Assembly: GCF_040938485.1 (NCBI RefSeq)
Contig: NW_027270920.1
Span: 868,001 to 932,000 of the forward strand
Source of the DNA: Diadema antillarum
Taxonomy: Eukaryota
DNA length: 64,000 bases
Reading direction: 5' to 3'
Made by a program: the position numbers. Positions within the stretch are counted from its first letter, which is position 1; the number at the start of each line of letters is the position of its first letter. Positions 19,776 to 64,000 of this stretch are shown here, in pieces.

Positions 19776-22700
19776 AAACAAAGTGGATATTCAGTAGCAT
19801 CAAGCACACATGGCTCTAAATCTTGCAAAGCACTGAATATTTCTGCCATAGGTTTCACCTACATGTATAATCTTTCTGGATTTATCTGAAATGTGCCACA
19901 ATGAAATTTGATACATACAACAAATATGACCCTGGACCTACTTCACTTAAAAGATGAAAAATAAAAAATAACATCTTCTTTTCTTTCATTCAAGCCTTTC
20001 AAATTCCAGGATGCTTCCGTCTGTGGTAGTTATCATCCAAAATAGGATCCAGATGATAGACTGTAGAGTGAACTGGTTGATTGATTCCCTAAGCCCAAAG
20101 GATCCTCTTAAATTGGTCACAGAATGAAAATATTCCGTGGTCACTTTGAAAGTGAAACATGGTGTTGAAAGTGGGTAAAGGAAAGAAAAAAAAAATCAAT
20201 GCCAGGGAAGCTATCGAGGCCACTGTTGAGGCTGTTCAGGGGAGGAAAAAATAAACAGACCTCTTCAGGAAGTGCTTCTCATTCCCATCTGGAAATGTAT
20301 TCTTTTCTTTTCTTTTTTTTTTTTTGGGGGGGGGTTAAATTTGTTACTCAGAAAGGAAAGGGAAGGCTCTCACAAAATGAAAGCAGTCTGCTTCAAAGTA
20401 GGAACGCTTAGAGTAAGAATGGCTGTAACGTTACTGCAGATTTTGATCGAACAAACATCTTGTGCCTTCAGTATCATCCAGTGTAATTTTTAAGGAGCAT
20501 CACTGCTTTTAATAGCTGTCATACATTAATTTTGCTTTGGGGTCCTGCTGAACTAGTCTGCTTCAATGAAAAAGTCACGCAACAGCTGGAAGATCGATAC
20601 ACATGCCTTTCAGCTCACAGTGATTCTCAGCAAAGAATGCTCACTGGAAACTTGTGACAACCGCACAGACAATTCATTCTCACGAACTCTGGCAGTAAAA
20701 GACACCTACAGCAACTTCAACCTTTGTTTTGGAAGCTCGTGGTCATGGCAACCAAGCCGGATAATGCTGGTTCAACCATTACAGCAATTGTGAGCTTACT
20801 GTTGTGTGTTCAGGCCGCCACGCCTGCATCCTTTGACAATTTCCAAACAAGTCAGCAGGAATGCAGATTCAAAGAAACCAGTGTGGGTGTCAAGGTATCC
20901 TGTACACATCTCTATCTGACGGACGTCCCTCGGAATTTGCCAAACAACACCATCTCGCTTGACTTATCATTCAACAACATCACGCTGCAGCGGAATGATT
21001 CCTTTACTAGCTTGCCAATGCTGGAAATTCTCAATTTGCAATGGAATAATATAGCAATTATTAGAAAAGAAATCTTCTGGCCACTGGCAAGCTTAAGGAC
21101 TCTTATCTTGGGCGAGAATGCTATAGAGTATCTCGAGGCTGCAACATTTCTCTACAACCCTCATCTAACAATTGTACCATTGGCTTCCAACTGTCTCAAA
21201 GAAATTCCCACTGCTGCTTTATCAACCCTGTCTTCACTACAGTGGTAAATTTAGCAAGCAATTCTGTGAGATCCCTAAGCTTTAACGGATTTGAAAAATG
21301 GAAACACATCTCCGAACTTTCCTTGAAAGTAAACAATATAACTGAAATAAATCCCACTGATTTTCTTCCTCTGCAAAACACCACAGTAGAAATTCTTGAT
21401 CTGAGGGCAAACCAAATAGAGAGCTTACCTTACCAAGCATTCTTCTACTTGAAGAATGTCAATGCAATCAATCTTGGAGGGAATAACATCTTCTCGTTTG
21501 GCATCTGGCCTTTCCTGGGCATGAAAGAAATTAGTACCCTCACTGTTGAGGGTTCATCGATTCATGAGCTCCCCCCAATGAATACTTCCACAAATCTCTC
21601 ATTGCAATACCCAAACATTCCTAACCTTACCTTACGGTACAATTTCTTACAGTCTATCCCAAGTGGTGCTTTGTGGGGCTTTGACAAACTGAAGAAGCTT
21701 AATCTCTTTGCAAACAAGATTTCTGATATCACAAATGACTCTTTCTGTTGCCTGCTATCCTTAACAGACAGACCTTGATATGTCCCAAAACAAATTGTCC
21801 TTCATTCCACATGGAGCATTCTCTTGCTTGTCTCGCCTCCAGCAACTTAATGTGACAGGAAATGTACTGAACGTGGTTTCTCCACAGTCGTTTGCTGGCA
21901 TGAACTCAATAAGGACTTTAGTGCTTGCCAAGAATTTCATTGATGAAGTCCTAGAGACAGCATGGACCATCCCCACCCTTCAAACACTTGATCTCTCACA
22001 CAATCTCCTGGACACTCTCAAGAGCAGACGATTCACTGGTCTGTCAAACCTTCAAGCACTAAACATCTCGTTCAATCTTCTCACCATTATTACTCTGCAG
22101 TCCGTTTACTGGTCTATCAAACCTGCGGAAGTCTACATCTCAAATGAGAAACGTGCATATTTGAATGGCATGTTTAAGGCTTTGCCAAAGCTGCAATTCT
22201 TGGATGTGTCAAACAACCCGATCTCTTGGATGTCCATTGATCAATTCAGCAACAATGCTGACCTTGAGGAGCTGCGAATGGAACGAGGACAGCTACTGGG
22301 CAGAGTTTTGTTCGATAACAGTCAAAACAGTCTTTTTCAGAGGTCTCGTTTCCCTGGGAAAACTCCGTTTGAAGGGGAACTTTTTCCATCAAGTTGATCT
22401 TCGTACATTCTCAAATCTCTCCACACTTTACTACCTGGATATGAGTGAGTCACGTATCACTGTTCTTGTCCCTCGAATATTCAAAGATTTACACTCTCTA
22501 AAGTTCCTGTATCTGAACGACAACAAGCTACTAGCACTTAATGGGGATGTGTTTCAGGGACTTGGAAGCTTAACAGTACTTCTTATCCAGAATAATTCAC
22601 TCAGTAAAATTGAGAAGCAGACCTTTGCACATACTCCAGAGCTACGAGCACTGTATTTGCCTGGGAATCATATCAACACCATACTTCCTGGAACCTTCTT

Positions 22701-61600: not shown

Positions 61601-64000
61601 AACATTCCTAACCTTTCCCTACGGTATAATTTCTTACAATCTATCCCAAGTGGTGCCTTGTGGGGCTTTGACAAACTGAAGAGGCTTAACCTCCATGGAA
61701 ATAAGATTTCTGATATTACAAATGACTCTTTCTGTTGCCTACTATCTCTAGCAGACCTTGATATGTCCCAAAATGCATTGTCCTTCATTCCACATGGTGC
61801 ATTCTCTTGTTTGTCTACCCTCCAGCAGCTTAATGTGACAGGAAATGTTCTGAAGGTGGTTTCTCCACAGTCGTTTGCTGGCATGAACTCAATAAGGACT
61901 TTATTGCTTGCCAAAAATTTCATTGAGGAAGTATTAGGAGCAGCATGGACCATCCCTACCCTTCAAACACTTGATCTTTCACATAATCTCCTGGACACTC
62001 TCAAGAGCAGACGATTCACTGGTCTGTCAAACCTTCAAGTGCTAAATATCTCATTTAATCTTCTCACCATGTTCACTCTGCAGTCCGTTTATGGACTATC
62101 AAACCTGCAGAAGCTGTATGCCACAAATGAGAAACATTCATATTTGAATGGCATGCTTAAGGCTTTGCCAAAGCTGCAATACTTGGATGTGTCAAACAAC
62201 CCGATCTCCTGGATGTCCATTGATCAATTCACTCACAATGCTGTCCTTGAAGAGCTGCGAATGGAACGAGGACAGTTGCTGGGCAGAGACTTATTTGACA
62301 ACAGTCAAAACATGTCTATTTTCAGAGGCCTTGCTTCCCTGGGCAAGCTCCGTTTGAAAGGGAACTTTTTGCATCAATTAGATCTTCGAACATTCTCAAA
62401 CCTTTCCAATCTTTACTACCTGGATATGAGTGAGTCACGTATCACTGTTCTTGTCCCTCGAATATTCAAAGATTTACACTCTCTAAAGTTCCTGTATCTG
62501 AATGACAACAAGCTACTAGCACTTAATGGAGATGTGTTTCAGGGACTTGGAAGCTTAACAGTACTTCTTATCCAGAATAATTCACTCAGCAAAATTGAGA
62601 AACAGACTTTTGCACCTACTCCAGAGCTACGAGCACTGTATTTGCCTGGGAATCATATCAACACCATACTTCCTGGAACCTTCTTTCCGACCACAGATCA
62701 TTCTCTGTCTATTGACATCTCCAGGAATCCCATCTCCTGCACCTGTGAGCTACAGTGGTTCAGGAACTGGCTTCACACAGCCAACATCAGAATTGAACAT
62801 CCTGATCGGACACTGTGCTCCAGCGCCTCACTGCAGGTGCTCAAAAACAAGCCTCTACTGTCCTTTGATCCAGGTGACTTCTGTGGTGTGGACACCGCTC
62901 TCATCACTGGACTATCCCTGACAGGAGCGGCTGTCTTTCTTCTCACTGTCCTCGCTTACATCAATCGCTGGTGGCTGAACTACAAATTCTTTCTGCTGAA
63001 GCTAGCCTTGTTTGGCTACAAGGAGGTTGAGGAAGATGTGGCAGAGGAGGACTACCGCTACCAGCTCAACGTCATGTTCCACGACGATGATGAGGGGTTT
63101 GTGAATGACATCCTGAGACCAGCCTTGATGCAGAGGATGCCTCATCTGCAGCACATCATCTACGGGGACGATGACCTCAACGTAGGGATGTTCTATGTCG
63201 ACGCCCTCTATCATGCTATTGAGAGCAGCTACAAGTCAGTCCTTTTGATAAGCAATCAGTCTGTGGGTGATGTCTGGTTTATGACCAAGCTCCGTATGGC
63301 GCTGGAGCACTTGAATGAGACCAGACTGGACAAAATCATTCTTGTGTTTCTGGAGGACATTGAGGACGACAACCTGCCCTATCTTGTCAGGCTCTTTCTG
63401 AGTAGGAACAGGCCCTACATGTTGTGGACTGAGGATGAAGATGGACAGGAACTGTTCTGGGCCACTTTAGAGAAGAACATGAGGACTAACAGAGTTCTCA
63501 ACAATATCATTCCTGTTTGAGTTCAAATGGTGTAAAGAAACAGCACATGTTGGGCCAACGTTTGTGGGTAACACGCTTGTAAGTTACAGTGGACTCCAGC
63601 AATAATGAAGTCCTGGGGACCTGCATCTTTCTTTCGTTATTATCTAAATTTTGTAATCATAACCCAACAAATACACAATAAAAATACATAGAGTGCATAA
63701 TGTTGGAGCTGAATTTTTTCTTCGTTGTAACCAGAATTGAATTATAATTGTGTTCATTATTACGGGAGTGCCTCGTATCAATCCAGCCGAATAACCTTCA
63801 GTTTTCCTTGATTTACGTCCTTGTTCAGACTTCAAATCCAAATCACCAATATTTGGTGATTATTTGTACCTACACGTGTATAGATGAGTGTGCTTATAAA
63901 CTAAAAACAGCTGGTAAAGAGGAAAATGGAAACTATGTTTGATTTTATTTCACTATCTGAAAAAGAGACTGTAGACTTTGTCATAATATAATTGCATGTT

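What the first reader, a model, noticed from the sequence alone, without database searches (positions are those of the whole stretch)
20745..63520. Strict A-B-A-B-A-B alternation: the unit of amplification is a two-receptor cassette
Seen: class A (MANKLDNAGS..TPASFDNF) and class B (MAVAMATKLDTATS..TPTPSGHFHV) genes alternate, each with class-specific flanks. The period is 14.8-14.95 kb once the 2773-bp insertion is removed. Established: sea urchin TLRs are often intronless and tandemly clustered, and vertebrate TLRs can act as heterodimers (TLR1/2, TLR2/6). Inference: the pair may be co-amplified by accident of the breakpoint, or maintained as a functional A/B pair with balanced dosage. Cassette copy number is likely polymorphic.
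Basis: partly seen in the sequence, partly recalled or inferred. Interest (0 to 1): 0.65.

Follow-up and report, generated by a model that had tools for sequence, protein, structure and literature searches.

The report
Tandemly triplicated two-gene Toll-like receptor cassette
A 14.9-kb stretch carrying two related Toll-like receptor genes has been copied head to tail three times and the copies have since swapped pieces, which is the ordinary way that large immune-receptor gene families grow rather than evidence of a matched receptor pair.

Summary
Six single-exon TLR genes on the + strand alternate A-B-A-B-A-B. Flanks are class-specific. ATG-to-ATG periods are 14.81-14.95 kb once a 2,773-bp insertion (46882-49654) is removed.

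The alternation follows from one 14.9-kb segment being present three times. The segment starts at 18549, and both internal junctions are identical.

- Both genes of cassette 1 are frameshifted pseudogenes.
- The coding regions are mosaics. Only 58 of 371 variable sites separate A from B, and each A copy carries a different B-like tract.
- A2 and A3 differ from each other (dS 0.16) about as much as from B (0.16-0.21), while B2 and B3 are nearly identical (dS 0.022).
- The three cassettes are block-wise recombinants of one another.

Best reading: an older A/B duplicate pair was later amplified as a block by unequal crossing-over, then reshaped by gene conversion and birth-and-death. Nothing supports a selected A/B heterodimer. 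The sea-urchin origin, copy-number polymorphism and assembly correctness could not be tested.

The parts
18549..34004 (+). Cassette 1 (A1 + B1). Its first 650 bp are interrupted by a private 556-bp TTAA-flanked MITE.
   Evidence: 18549-18645 matches 34005-34101 (88.8%) and 51586-51684. Homology resumes at 19198. The rest is co-linear with cassettes 2 and 3.
34005..51585 (+). Cassette 2 (A2 + B2), carrying the 2,773-bp insertion.
   Evidence: Offsets are 14,811-14,898 to cassette 1 and 17,578-17,682 to cassette 3. The junction sequence is identical to the next junction over the 100 bp shown.
51586..64000 (+). Cassette 3 (A3 + B3), cut off by the end of the window about 480 bp after the B3 stop codon.
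20745..23535 (+). A1, a class-A TLR pseudogene. It has five frameshifting indels near 21239, 21764-21767 (ACAG duplication), 22109, 22133 and 22329. The frame from the ATG stops after 167 codons.
   Evidence: The indels are not in long homopolymers.
28122..30926 (+). B1, a class-B TLR pseudogene. It has a 1-bp deletion near 28554 and a 1-bp insertion at 28722, which put 56 codons out of frame with stops. The first stop comes after 145 codons.
35554..38343 (+). A2, an intact 929-aa TLR with signal peptide, about 25 LRRs, LRR-CT cysteines, a transmembrane helix and a TIR domain.
42993..45797 (+). B2, an intact 934-aa TLR.
53143..55932 (+). A3, an intact 929-aa TLR.
60716..63520 (+). B3, an intact 934-aa TLR.
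35107..38382 (+). The only part of the cassette shared between A and B, shown for A2. It runs from about 450 bp upstream of the ATG to 39 bp past the stop. Counterparts: B1 27709-30966, B2 42582-45837, A3 52696-55971, B3 about 60299-63558, A1 about 20504-23574.
   Evidence: Self-blastn at 89-92% identity and the sliding identity table.
20955..21813 (+). B-like conversion tract in A1.
   Evidence: 59 B2-like versus 19 A2-like informative sites inside, 36 versus 90 outside; 0 of 300 shuffles reach the chi-square. The tree for columns 225-600 gives (A2,A3)|(A1,B1,B2,B3) with 100/100 support. Coordinates.
36306..37032 (+). B-like conversion tract in A2.
   Evidence: 48 B2-like versus 19 A1-like sites inside, 33 versus 90 outside; 0 of 300 shuffles. 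The tree for columns 768-1400 groups A2 with the B genes at 100/99.
55028..55239 (+). B-like conversion tract in A3.
   Evidence: 16 B2-like versus 0 A1-like sites inside; 0 of 300 shuffles. The tree gives (A1,A2)|(A3,B1,B2,B3) at 100/99.
28399..28537 (+). A-like conversion tract in B1.
   Evidence: 14 A1-like versus 1 B2-like site inside, 10 versus 169 outside; 0 of 300 shuffles.
46882..49654 (.). The 2,773-bp insertion private to cassette 2 relative to cassette 1. It is two adjacent elements with terminal inverted repeats (46882-48884 and 48885-49654), each bounded by TTAA.
   Evidence: Inverted repeats I4 (20 nt, 100%) and I5 (22 nt, 86%). Sequence at the filled and empty sites was read. 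No Pfam hit for its longest ORF.
18646..19201 (.). A 556-bp TTAA-flanked MITE present only in the first copy of the cassette start.
   Evidence: Inverted termini 18642-18851 and 19201-18999. The uninterrupted site is at 34101/34102.

Best explanation
This is a young tandem segmental duplication inside an expanded invertebrate TLR family.

Step 1 (inferred from divergence). An ancestral single-exon TLR gene duplicated long ago into paralogues A and B, about 7.4 kb apart. Only about 3.3 kb of homology remains between them (gene, about 450 bp upstream, 39 bp downstream).

Step 2 (shown). A 14.9-kb segment containing both genes was duplicated head to tail with a junction at 34004|34005.

Step 3 (shown for the junction, inferred for the mechanism). 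A third copy arose by misaligned homologous exchange (unequal crossing-over) between cassettes, which reproduced the same junction. Cassettes share 14.9 kb at 93-100% identity, whereas A and B share only 3.3 kb at about 90%. In-register exchange is therefore favoured and always adds or removes A and B together. That alone explains the strict alternation.

Step 4 (shown). Continued exchange made the three cassettes block-wise mosaics of one another. It homogenised the B genes almost completely. It also moved short tracts between A and B in both directions without touching the class-specific flanks, so this is gene conversion, not crossover.

Step 5 (shown). Birth-and-death: both genes of cassette 1 are frameshifted. 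The four intact genes evolve under purifying selection that is stronger on the TIR domain than on the LRR ectodomain. Their amino-acid variation is enriched on the predicted concave beta-strand face.

The encoded proteins are type-I membrane receptors of the vertebrate-like (single-cysteine-cluster) TLR type. They presumably act in pathogen sensing (inferred from family membership only).
For: TLR identity:
- Pfam LRR_8 with 9-10 matched stretches (E 2e-80 and 5e-82) plus TIR at 26.7-26.8 bits against a 21.3-bit cut-off.
- Best full-length PDB match is TLR3, E 1.3e-43.
- The TIR domain alone matches TLR15/TLR2, TLR6 and TLR1 TIR structures, E 2.5e-11 to 4e-8.
- 25 LRR motif starts, and hydrophobic peaks at residues 12-30 and 724-742.

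Cassette duplication:
- Co-linear self-matches with offsets 14,811-14,898 and 17,578-17,682.
- Whole-cassette alignment at 83-100% identity.
- The two junctions are identical over the 100 bp shown.
- Only six TLR loci in the window.

A/B split is older than the amplification:
- Flanks are unalignable between classes but 80-100% identical within a class.
- The 5' coding segment gives (A1,A2,A3)|(B1,B2,B3) at 100/100.

Recombination between cassettes:
- Three-way site patterns switch in blocks. U2=U3 at 226 sites in 34156-36155, U1=U2 at 72 sites in 36656-37655, U1=U3 at 94 sites in 39656-41155, U2=U3 at 41 sites in 41156-42155.
- The longest exact match, 1,593 bp, is between the non-adjacent genes B1 and B3.

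A/B conversion:
- 58 of 371 variable coding sites are A|B diagnostic. Another 50 group A1 with B, 21 group A2 with B, and 24 group A3 with B, each clustered in a different place.
- All 8 triplet maximum-chi-square tests were reached by 0 of 300 shuffles.
- Segment trees conflict with one another at 100/99 support.

Selection:
- dN/dS is 0.23-0.32 over the whole gene and 0.07-0.13 for the TM+TIR part.
- Variable residues fall on 32 of 125 concave positions against 73 of 488 others (odds ratio 1.96, p 0.007).

Context in print:
- Sea-urchin TLRs are single-exon, have 21-25 LRRs, sit in large tandem arrays, are 26% pseudogenes, and have LRRs more variable than the TIR (PMC3367398; passages and sections 10 and 13 read).
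- Gene conversion between tandem TLR paralogues is documented in vertebrates (PMC3125219, section 17).
Against: - Unequal crossing-over is inferred from the end products. No event is observed.
- There is no outgroup, so the direction of each conversion tract and the order of the duplications are not polarised.
- The synonymous divergence of A2 and A3 (0.16) is about three times the divergence of the neutral spacer between the same cassettes (95.2% identity). Conversion from the B genes in the window explains only part of this. A3 has 70 private sites and A2 has 35, and their donors, if any, are not in the window.
- Cassette 1 is unusually divergent upstream of A (86% identity, against 99.7% between cassettes 2 and 3). 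The history is therefore more complex than two clean steps.
- The correctness of the assembly could not be checked.
- The organism is not identified.
Confidence: 0.8

Rival explanations
1. Selected functional pair. A and B encode obligate partners, for example a heterodimer or a variable sensor with a constant partner. Selection for balanced dosage keeps them together, so only whole cassettes are tolerated as copy-number changes.
For: - The intact genes number 2 A and 2 B, and no unpaired copy is in the window.
- In the intact genes, 68 alignment columns separate A from B consistently. They concentrate in residues 1-236 (47 columns) and 474-565 (13 columns), that is LRR1-7 and LRR17-20. The two mature ectodomains therefore do differ in defined regions.
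- The A copies are variable (92.6% amino-acid identity) while the B copies are nearly constant (99.3%). This superficially resembles sensor/helper pairs.
Against: - Pairing is the automatic result of in-register exchange between 14.9-kb repeats, so no selection is needed to explain it.
- n is 3 cassettes, or two events.
- The constancy of B includes synonymous sites (LRR dS 0.004) and the upstream non-coding block (98.6-99.1% identity). That indicates recent homogenisation, not protein-level constraint.
- A/B tracts are exchanged in both directions, and in A1 the N-terminal 'diagnostic' region is B-like.
- There is no A/B-diagnostic residue after residue 728.
- The genes are head to tail, 7.4 kb apart, with unrelated upstream DNA beyond about -450. 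They are not a shared-promoter pair.
- Both members of cassette 1 are dead.
Confidence: 0.07
2. Assembly artefact. Some of the three cassettes are allelic haplotypes, or a collapsed-then-expanded repeat, wrongly laid in tandem, so the true copy number or order differs.
For: - Cassette-to-cassette divergence in the spacers (3.7-6.3%) is in the range I recall for allelic divergence in sea urchins (recalled, not checked).
- In a sea urchin, an immune gene cluster in the reference assembly was shown to be a hybrid of two clusters that may be alleles (PMC5103432, abstract and section headings only).
- TLR repeats are reported as hard to assemble (PMC3367398 passage).
- Long homopolymers differ between copies: A49 at 19734-19782 and G30 at 52618-52647.
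Against: - The window has no N, so all three cassettes and both junctions lie in one gap-free stretch.
- There are three copies, not two.
- Each copy has private structural features: the MITE at 18646-19201, the 2,773-bp insertion, and different frameshifts.
- Relationships among copies switch block-wise in a way that two haplotypes cannot produce.
- None of these points excludes a mis-join. No reads were available.
Confidence: 0.1
3. Diversity-generating array. The cassette copies, including the two pseudogenes, are kept as donors for gene conversion that creates new mosaic A-type ectodomains. This would be a germline analogue of pseudogene-templated diversification.
For: - Each of the 3 A copies carries a different converted tract.
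- Private changes in A1 are 27 synonymous to 28 non-synonymous, far from the neutral 77.5% non-synonymous expectation (p 1.5e-5). Its sequence was therefore shaped under constraint and is still 'protein-like' donor material.
- Variation is enriched on concave LRR positions.
Against: - Mosaicism is the expected passive by-product of any close tandem paralogues.
- Nothing shows that the arrangement is maintained for this purpose.
- Whole-gene dN/dS is 0.23-0.32, with no excess of replacement changes.
- The A1 pattern is equally explained by recent inactivation.
Confidence: 0.03

Closest known systems
Tandem arrays of single-exon sccTLR genes in sea urchins (Strongylocentrotus purpuratus; Buckley & Rast 2012, PMC3367398)
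   Same: - Whole receptor in one exon.
- LRR-NT, 21-25 LRRs, LRR-CT, TM and TIR architecture (25 LRR starts counted here).
- Clustering in tandem arrays.
- About a quarter of members are pseudogenes (2 of 6 here).
- Ectodomain more variable than the TIR, with variation on the concave beta-strands (paper passages and sections 10 and 13).
   Different: - The parts of the paper I read describe arrays of subfamily members, not a repeating unit made of two distinct paralogues with class-specific flanks.
- Membership in a named subfamily (Ia-XI), and even the species, could not be tested.
Vertebrate TLR1 family clusters (mammalian TLR1/TLR6/TLR10; avian TLR1A/B and TLR2A/B; Huang et al. 2011, PMC3125219)
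   Same: Tandem TLR paralogues partly homogenised by gene conversion. Trees conflict between gene segments, and the ligand-binding parts stay distinct (section 17).
   Different: - There the converted regions are large and fixed: the C-terminal half, and for avian TLR2A/B both ends.
- Here the tracts are short, differ from copy to copy, and the pair itself is re-amplified.
- The known heterodimer partner (TLR2) is not the tandem neighbour of TLR1/6 (recalled), so that system does not support reading neighbours as partners.
Multi-gene tandem modules such as the human RCCX module (C4-CYP21-TNX; recalled, not checked here)
   Same: A cassette of more than one gene duplicated as a block by unequal crossing-over. 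Copy number is variable, copies include pseudogenes, and there is gene conversion between copies.
   Different: - RCCX genes are unrelated to one another, whereas here the two genes are paralogues that also convert each other.
- Copy-number variation is not shown here.
Sea-urchin SpTransformer (Sp185/333) clusters (Oren et al. 2016, PMC5103432; abstract only)
   Same: An immune gene cluster with segmental duplications that include subsets of genes, with proposed recombination, conversion and deletion, and with assembly difficulties.
   Different: - A different gene family.
- Short tandem repeats mark the duplication edges there. Here the junction (33926-34026) shows no such repeat in the 100 bp read, and the left edge lies at a TTTAAG next to an exon of a neighbouring gene.
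Paired plant NLR receptors (sensor/helper pairs; recalled)
   Same: Two adjacent paralogous immune receptors, one variable and one conserved.
   Different: - Those pairs are typically head to head with a shared promoter and demonstrated physical and genetic interdependence (recalled).
- Here the genes are head to tail with unrelated upstream DNA.
- The conservation of B is due to recent homogenisation.

Membership tests
Toll-like receptor (vertebrate-like, single-cysteine-cluster type) | C-terminal cytoplasmic TIR domain | tested here: met
   Pfam TIR scores 26.7 and 26.8 bits against a 21.3-bit cut-off in A2 and B2. The TIR region alone matches solved TLR TIR domains, E 2.5e-11 to 1e-6.
Toll-like receptor (vertebrate-like, single-cysteine-cluster type) | Uninterrupted run of LRRs in the ectodomain (about 20-25) | tested here: met
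   Pfam LRR_8 with 10 and 9 matched stretches, E 2e-80 and 5e-82. There are 25 LxxLxLxxN-type starts spaced 23-31 residues apart. No internal cysteine cluster was seen by eye in the translation.
Toll-like receptor (vertebrate-like, single-cysteine-cluster type) | Signal peptide and one transmembrane helix between the LRR-CT and the TIR | tested here: met
   Kyte-Doolittle peaks at residues 12-30 (1.77) and 724-742 (2.11) in A2, with the same in B2. No dedicated signal-peptide predictor was available.
Toll-like receptor (vertebrate-like, single-cysteine-cluster type) | LRR-NT and LRR-CT cysteine caps | tested here: inconclusive
   A CxC...C...C pattern follows the last LRR, and two cysteines precede LRR1, both visible in the translation. 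No Pfam LRRNT or LRRCT model matched at E <= 0.01. The structure model was too poor to judge (mean pLDDT 49.4).
Sea-urchin TLR repertoire (named subfamilies Ia-XI) | Clusters with a named subfamily in a TIR-domain tree, from an echinoid genome | not testable with these tools
   No eukaryotic sequence collection was open. The Atlas look-up returned only generic TLR clusters, mostly chordate and one mollusc. The paper's supplements were closed.
Tandem segmental duplication (multi-gene cassette) | Head-to-tail copies with co-linear homology through genes and spacers and a shared junction | tested here: met
Interlocus gene conversion between paralogues | Clustered tracts with phylogenetic signal conflicting with that of unchanged flanks | tested here: met
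   (all 8 tests: 0 of 300 shuffles).
Obligate receptor pair (heterodimer) | Physical A-B association, co-expression, or co-evolving interface residues | not tested
   No expression data were available. The complex-prediction job was not sent, because two full ectodomains exceed its 1,000-residue size limit and a single job could not separate A/B from A/A or B/B at 89% identity.

The most novel reading that the evidence does not exclude
The cassette is a selected two-component receptor unit. In this reading a diversifying class-A 'sensor' ectodomain is paired with a class-B partner that is kept uniform across the array by biased gene conversion. Whole-cassette copy number is then the variable on which selection acts. 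This would be the first paired-receptor logic, as in plant sensor/helper NLRs, found in an animal TLR expansion.
Probability: 0.06. Interest if true: 0.7.

Novelty: new member of a known kind. Interest (0 to 1): 0.3.

Why it matters
The locus is a compact, fully readable example of how very large invertebrate TLR repertoires are built. An old paralogue pair is re-amplified as a block. The copies then recombine, convert one another and decay.

It shows concretely that gene 'classes' defined by N-terminus and flanks need not be classes of ectodomain. That matters for anyone building TLR subfamily trees or testing for positive selection, because recombination inflates such tests.

It also flags a locus where copy number is likely to vary and where assemblies deserve checking.

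It does not open a new mechanism.

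Tried and rejected
- Structure prediction of A2 from an alignment of the four intact window proteins gave mean pLDDT 49.4 and pTM 0.49. This was too poor to map A/B differences or to search by fold, so no fold search was run.
- Complex prediction was not sent. Two full ectodomains exceed its 1,000-residue size limit, and one job could not distinguish A/B from A/A or B/B.
- Rfam found no RNA family in the window.
- The Atlas look-up gave only generic TLR clusters with no useful taxonomy.
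- Pfam found nothing in the longest ORFs of the 2,773-bp insertion, of the cassette start, or upstream of B.
- I considered whether the frameshifts in A1 and B1 are homopolymer sequencing errors. None of the seven indels lies in a long homopolymer and one is an ACAG duplication, so I treat them as real. Reads were not available.
- I considered simple two-step duplication histories (1 to 2 to 3, or 1 to 3 to 2). I rejected them because the closest pair changes block by block.
- I considered A x B unequal crossover products. None of the 6 genes has mixed flanks.
- Four literature searches listed no paper describing a two-gene TLR cassette in echinoderms. This covers only the held open-access library and the listed titles and abstracts.
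- I looked for the upstream exons of the neighbouring PPWD1-like gene by reading through minus-strand ORFs of 45 aa or more in 17525-20500 and in the non-genic parts of cassette 2 and the start of cassette 3. Only the exon at 18467-18550 was recognisable. ORF 18313-18549 had no PDB match.
- The bacterial genome collection, the phage, plasmid and E. coli collections, and the closed protein and metagenome searches were not used. Relatives of these genes in other genomes therefore stayed unchecked.

Full report
**What is there**

The window has no N. ORF listing under the standard code finds four long intact frames and two broken ones, all on the + strand:
- A1 20745-23535 (broken)
- B1 28122-30926 (broken)
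- A2 35554-38343 (929 aa)
- B2 42993-45797 (934 aa)
- A3 53143-55932 (929 aa)
- B3 60716-63520 (934 aa)

A tblastn of A2 against the window finds these six loci and no other fragment.

The proteins are Toll-like receptors:
- Pfam LRR_8 with 9-10 matched stretches, plus a TIR domain above its cut-off.
- Best solved relative of the full-length protein is TLR3, E 1.3e-43.
- The TIR domain alone matches TLR15/2, TLR6, TLR1 and TLR2 TIR structures.
- I count 25 LRR starts, a hydrophobic N-terminus and one transmembrane peak at 724-742.
- Each receptor is encoded in one uninterrupted frame.

**The observation**

Flanks are class-specific:
- Beyond about 450 bp upstream, A-B pairs are 43-58% identical, A-A pairs 80-100% and B-B pairs 98-99%.
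- Beyond about 150 bp downstream, A-B pairs are 60-74%, A-A 88-98% and B-B 93-99%.
- None of the 6 genes has mixed flanks.

ATG-to-ATG distances are 14,809 (A1 to A2), 14,871 (B1 to B2), 17,589 (A2 to A3) and 17,723 (B2 to B3). The last two become 14,816 and 14,950 after subtracting 2,773. BLAST offsets agree.

The 2,773 bp are exactly 46882-49654. They consist of two adjacent elements with terminal inverted repeats (2,003 and 770 bp), each bounded by TTAA. They were inserted at a site that is empty in cassette 1. TTAA target duplication is typical of piggyBac-type elements (recalled). No transposase ORF is present.

**What the alternation means**

Alternation of three A and three B genes has a chance probability of only 2/20, so it proves little by itself. 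What is decisive is that the whole 14.9 kb, spacers and interspersed repeats included, is co-linear in three copies at 83-100% identity.

The repeated segment starts at 18549, not at the first gene. Positions 18549-18645 match 34005-34101 and 51586-51684. A 556-bp TTAA-flanked MITE (18646-19201) then interrupts the first copy only.

The two internal junctions are identical over the 100 bp read. The third copy therefore came from re-use of an existing junction, as expected from misaligned homologous exchange, and not from a new breakpoint. Cassette 3 runs off the window, so the length of the array is unknown.

**A versus B**

A and B share only about 3.3 kb, from about -450 to +39, at 89-92% identity. 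Everything else in the cassette is class-specific. The A/B duplication is therefore older than the cassette amplification.

Inside the coding region the classes are blurred.

*Site patterns.* Of 371 variable sites, 58 separate A from B. Another 50 group A1 with the B genes (columns 150-450), 21 group A2 with B (900-1350), and 24 group A3 with B (1950-2100).

*Tests and trees.*
- Maximum-chi-square tests on eight triplets were each reached by 0 of 300 shuffles.
- Segment trees conflict at 100/99 support. Columns 1-224 give A|B. Columns 225-600 give (A2,A3)|(A1,B1,B2,B3). Columns 768-1400 put A2 with the B genes. Columns 1906-2117 give (A1,A2)|(A3 plus the B genes). The TIR end is unresolved.
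- B1 in turn carries an A-like tract (14 of 15 informative sites).

The flanks are untouched, so these are conversion tracts, not crossovers.

*Consequences.*
- A2-A3 synonymous divergence is 0.16, against 0.16-0.21 for A-B pairs and 0.022 for B2-B3.
- Amino-acid identity is 92.6% for A2-A3, 88.6-89.5% for A-B and 99.3% for B2-B3.
- Among the intact genes, 68 alignment columns are A/B-diagnostic. Of these, 47 lie in residues 1-236, 13 lie in 474-565, and none lies after 728.

**Between cassettes**

The closest pair of cassettes changes block by block:
- U2=U3 in 34156-36155 (226 sites).
- U1=U2 in 36656-37655.
- U1=U3 in 39656-41155 (94 sites).
- U2=U3 in 41156-42155.

The B block is 98.6-99.1% identical in all three cassettes, the spacer 93.7-96.3%, and the A block only 91.4-94.4%. 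The longest exact match (1,593 bp) joins the non-adjacent genes B1 and B3.

The B genes have thus been homogenised recently, including at synonymous and upstream non-coding sites. The A genes are more diverged than neutral spacer. The B-like tracts explain part of this, and unseen donors may explain the rest (inference).

**Decay and selection**

A1 has five frameshifting indels and B1 has two. None lies in a long homopolymer. Both genes of cassette 1 are therefore pseudogenes, unless the assembly is wrong.

Private changes in A1 are 27 synonymous to 28 non-synonymous, far from neutral. Inactivation is therefore recent, or the variants were imported.

The intact genes show dN/dS of 0.23-0.32 overall and 0.07-0.13 in the TM+TIR part. 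Amino-acid variation is enriched at predicted concave LRR positions (32 of 125 against 73 of 488, p 0.007). This matches what was reported for sea-urchin TLR subfamilies (PMC3367398, section 10).

**Mechanism and rivals**

The best-supported account is block amplification of an older paralogue pair by unequal crossing-over, followed by concerted evolution and birth-and-death. In-register exchange between 14.9-kb repeats necessarily gains or loses A and B together. That is enough to explain the strict alternation.

An assembly artefact cannot be excluded without reads. One gap-free sequence, three copies, private markers in each copy and the block-wise relationships argue against a simple haplotype duplication. 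However, such errors are documented for another sea-urchin immune cluster (PMC5103432, abstract).

**Comparison with the known**

All features fit the described sea-urchin TLR expansion: single exon, 21-25 LRRs, tandem arrays and 26% pseudogenes (PMC3367398). They also fit gene conversion between tandem TLR paralogues in vertebrates (PMC3125219, section 17).

I could not test the species or the subfamily. This very locus may already be catalogued there.

Four literature searches listed no description of a two-gene TLR cassette.

**Neighbourhood**

On the minus strand to the left lies a PPWD1-like gene. I searched it exon by exon and built no joined model:
- 15672-15923 matches residues 548-599 of the solved human protein.
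- 17225-17524 matches residues 502-550.
- 18467-18550 matches residues 482-509.

Identity is about 90%, so I do not take the contig for human.

The cassette's left edge (18549) lies a few bases from the acceptor side of that last exon. The exons for residues 1-481 are not in the window. The TLR array may therefore sit, antisense, inside an intron of this gene, or the gene may be truncated. This stayed unchecked.

**Verdict**

This is a real feature, correctly observed. Its interpretation as a cassette-level amplification is right. Its reading as a functional receptor pair is unsupported. It is a new example of a known kind of immune-gene dynamics, of modest interest.

Noticed in passing
window 15672-15923, 17225-17524, 18467-18550 (minus strand): These are three exons of a PPWD1-like spliceosomal cyclophilin gene, matching residues 482-599 of the 646-residue solved human protein at about 90% identity. 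The TLR array starts a few bases from the last of these exons, and the exons for residues 1-481 are not in the window. The array may therefore lie antisense within an intron, or the gene may be truncated.
   Followed up: partly
window 18646-19201; 46882-48884; 48885-49654: Three non-autonomous elements have terminal inverted repeats and TTAA target-site duplications, as piggyBac-type elements do (recalled). Each is private to one cassette copy, which makes them useful markers for telling the copies apart in reads.
   Followed up: partly
window 30991-31174, 45862-46048, 63585-63771 (also 7085-7249 and 11097-11278 in opposite orientation): A roughly 165-bp interspersed repeat sits 65 bp after each B stop codon. 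It contains the only AATAAA/ATTAAA found within 1.2 kb downstream of B1 and B2, or within the 480 bp left before the window end for B3 (at +154/+157). The class-B polyadenylation signal may therefore be supplied by a repeat. Class A has its first such motif at +516 to +815.
   Followed up: no
A2 residues about 811-821 (window about 37984-38016) and the same place in all six genes: In the alignment to solved TLR TIR domains, the BB-loop reads DDLNVG where the TLR15/2 chain has RDFKPG. A valine replaces the proline that I recall as important for adaptor signalling in vertebrate TLRs. Box 1 is also atypical, and the Pfam TIR score is only 26.7 bits.
   Followed up: no
window 19734-19782 (A49), 52618-52647 (G30), about 34140-34155 (G run): Long homopolymers upstream of the A genes differ between cassette copies. 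They are likely hotspots for length error or real instability, and are worth checking in reads.
   Followed up: no
window 27188-27476, 32579-32870, 42060-42348, 50158-50447, 59780-60068: A roughly 290-bp repeat occurs twice per cassette at about 82% identity, once upstream of B and once in the cassette tail. The 142- and 181-aa ORFs upstream of B1 and B3 overlap it, and the one tested (59874-60419) had no Pfam match.
   Followed up: partly
window 16719-16947: A 117-bp unit is repeated twice at 99% identity, inside the presumed intron of the PPWD1-like gene.
   Followed up: no
window 1318-1560 and 4277-4549 (+ strand): Two coiled-coil-looking open frames lie here. The first has a weak Sas-6 C-terminal coiled-coil match, E 6e-4 and below the Pfam cut-off. 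They may be exons of another gene to the left of the array.
   Followed up: partly
window 34156-35106 versus 19273-20300: The region upstream of A is 99.7% identical between cassettes 2 and 3 but only 86% identical to cassette 1, with many gaps. This is far more diverged than the rest of the cassette. The left part of cassettes 2 and 3, or of cassette 1, may derive from a more distant array member outside the window.
   Followed up: no
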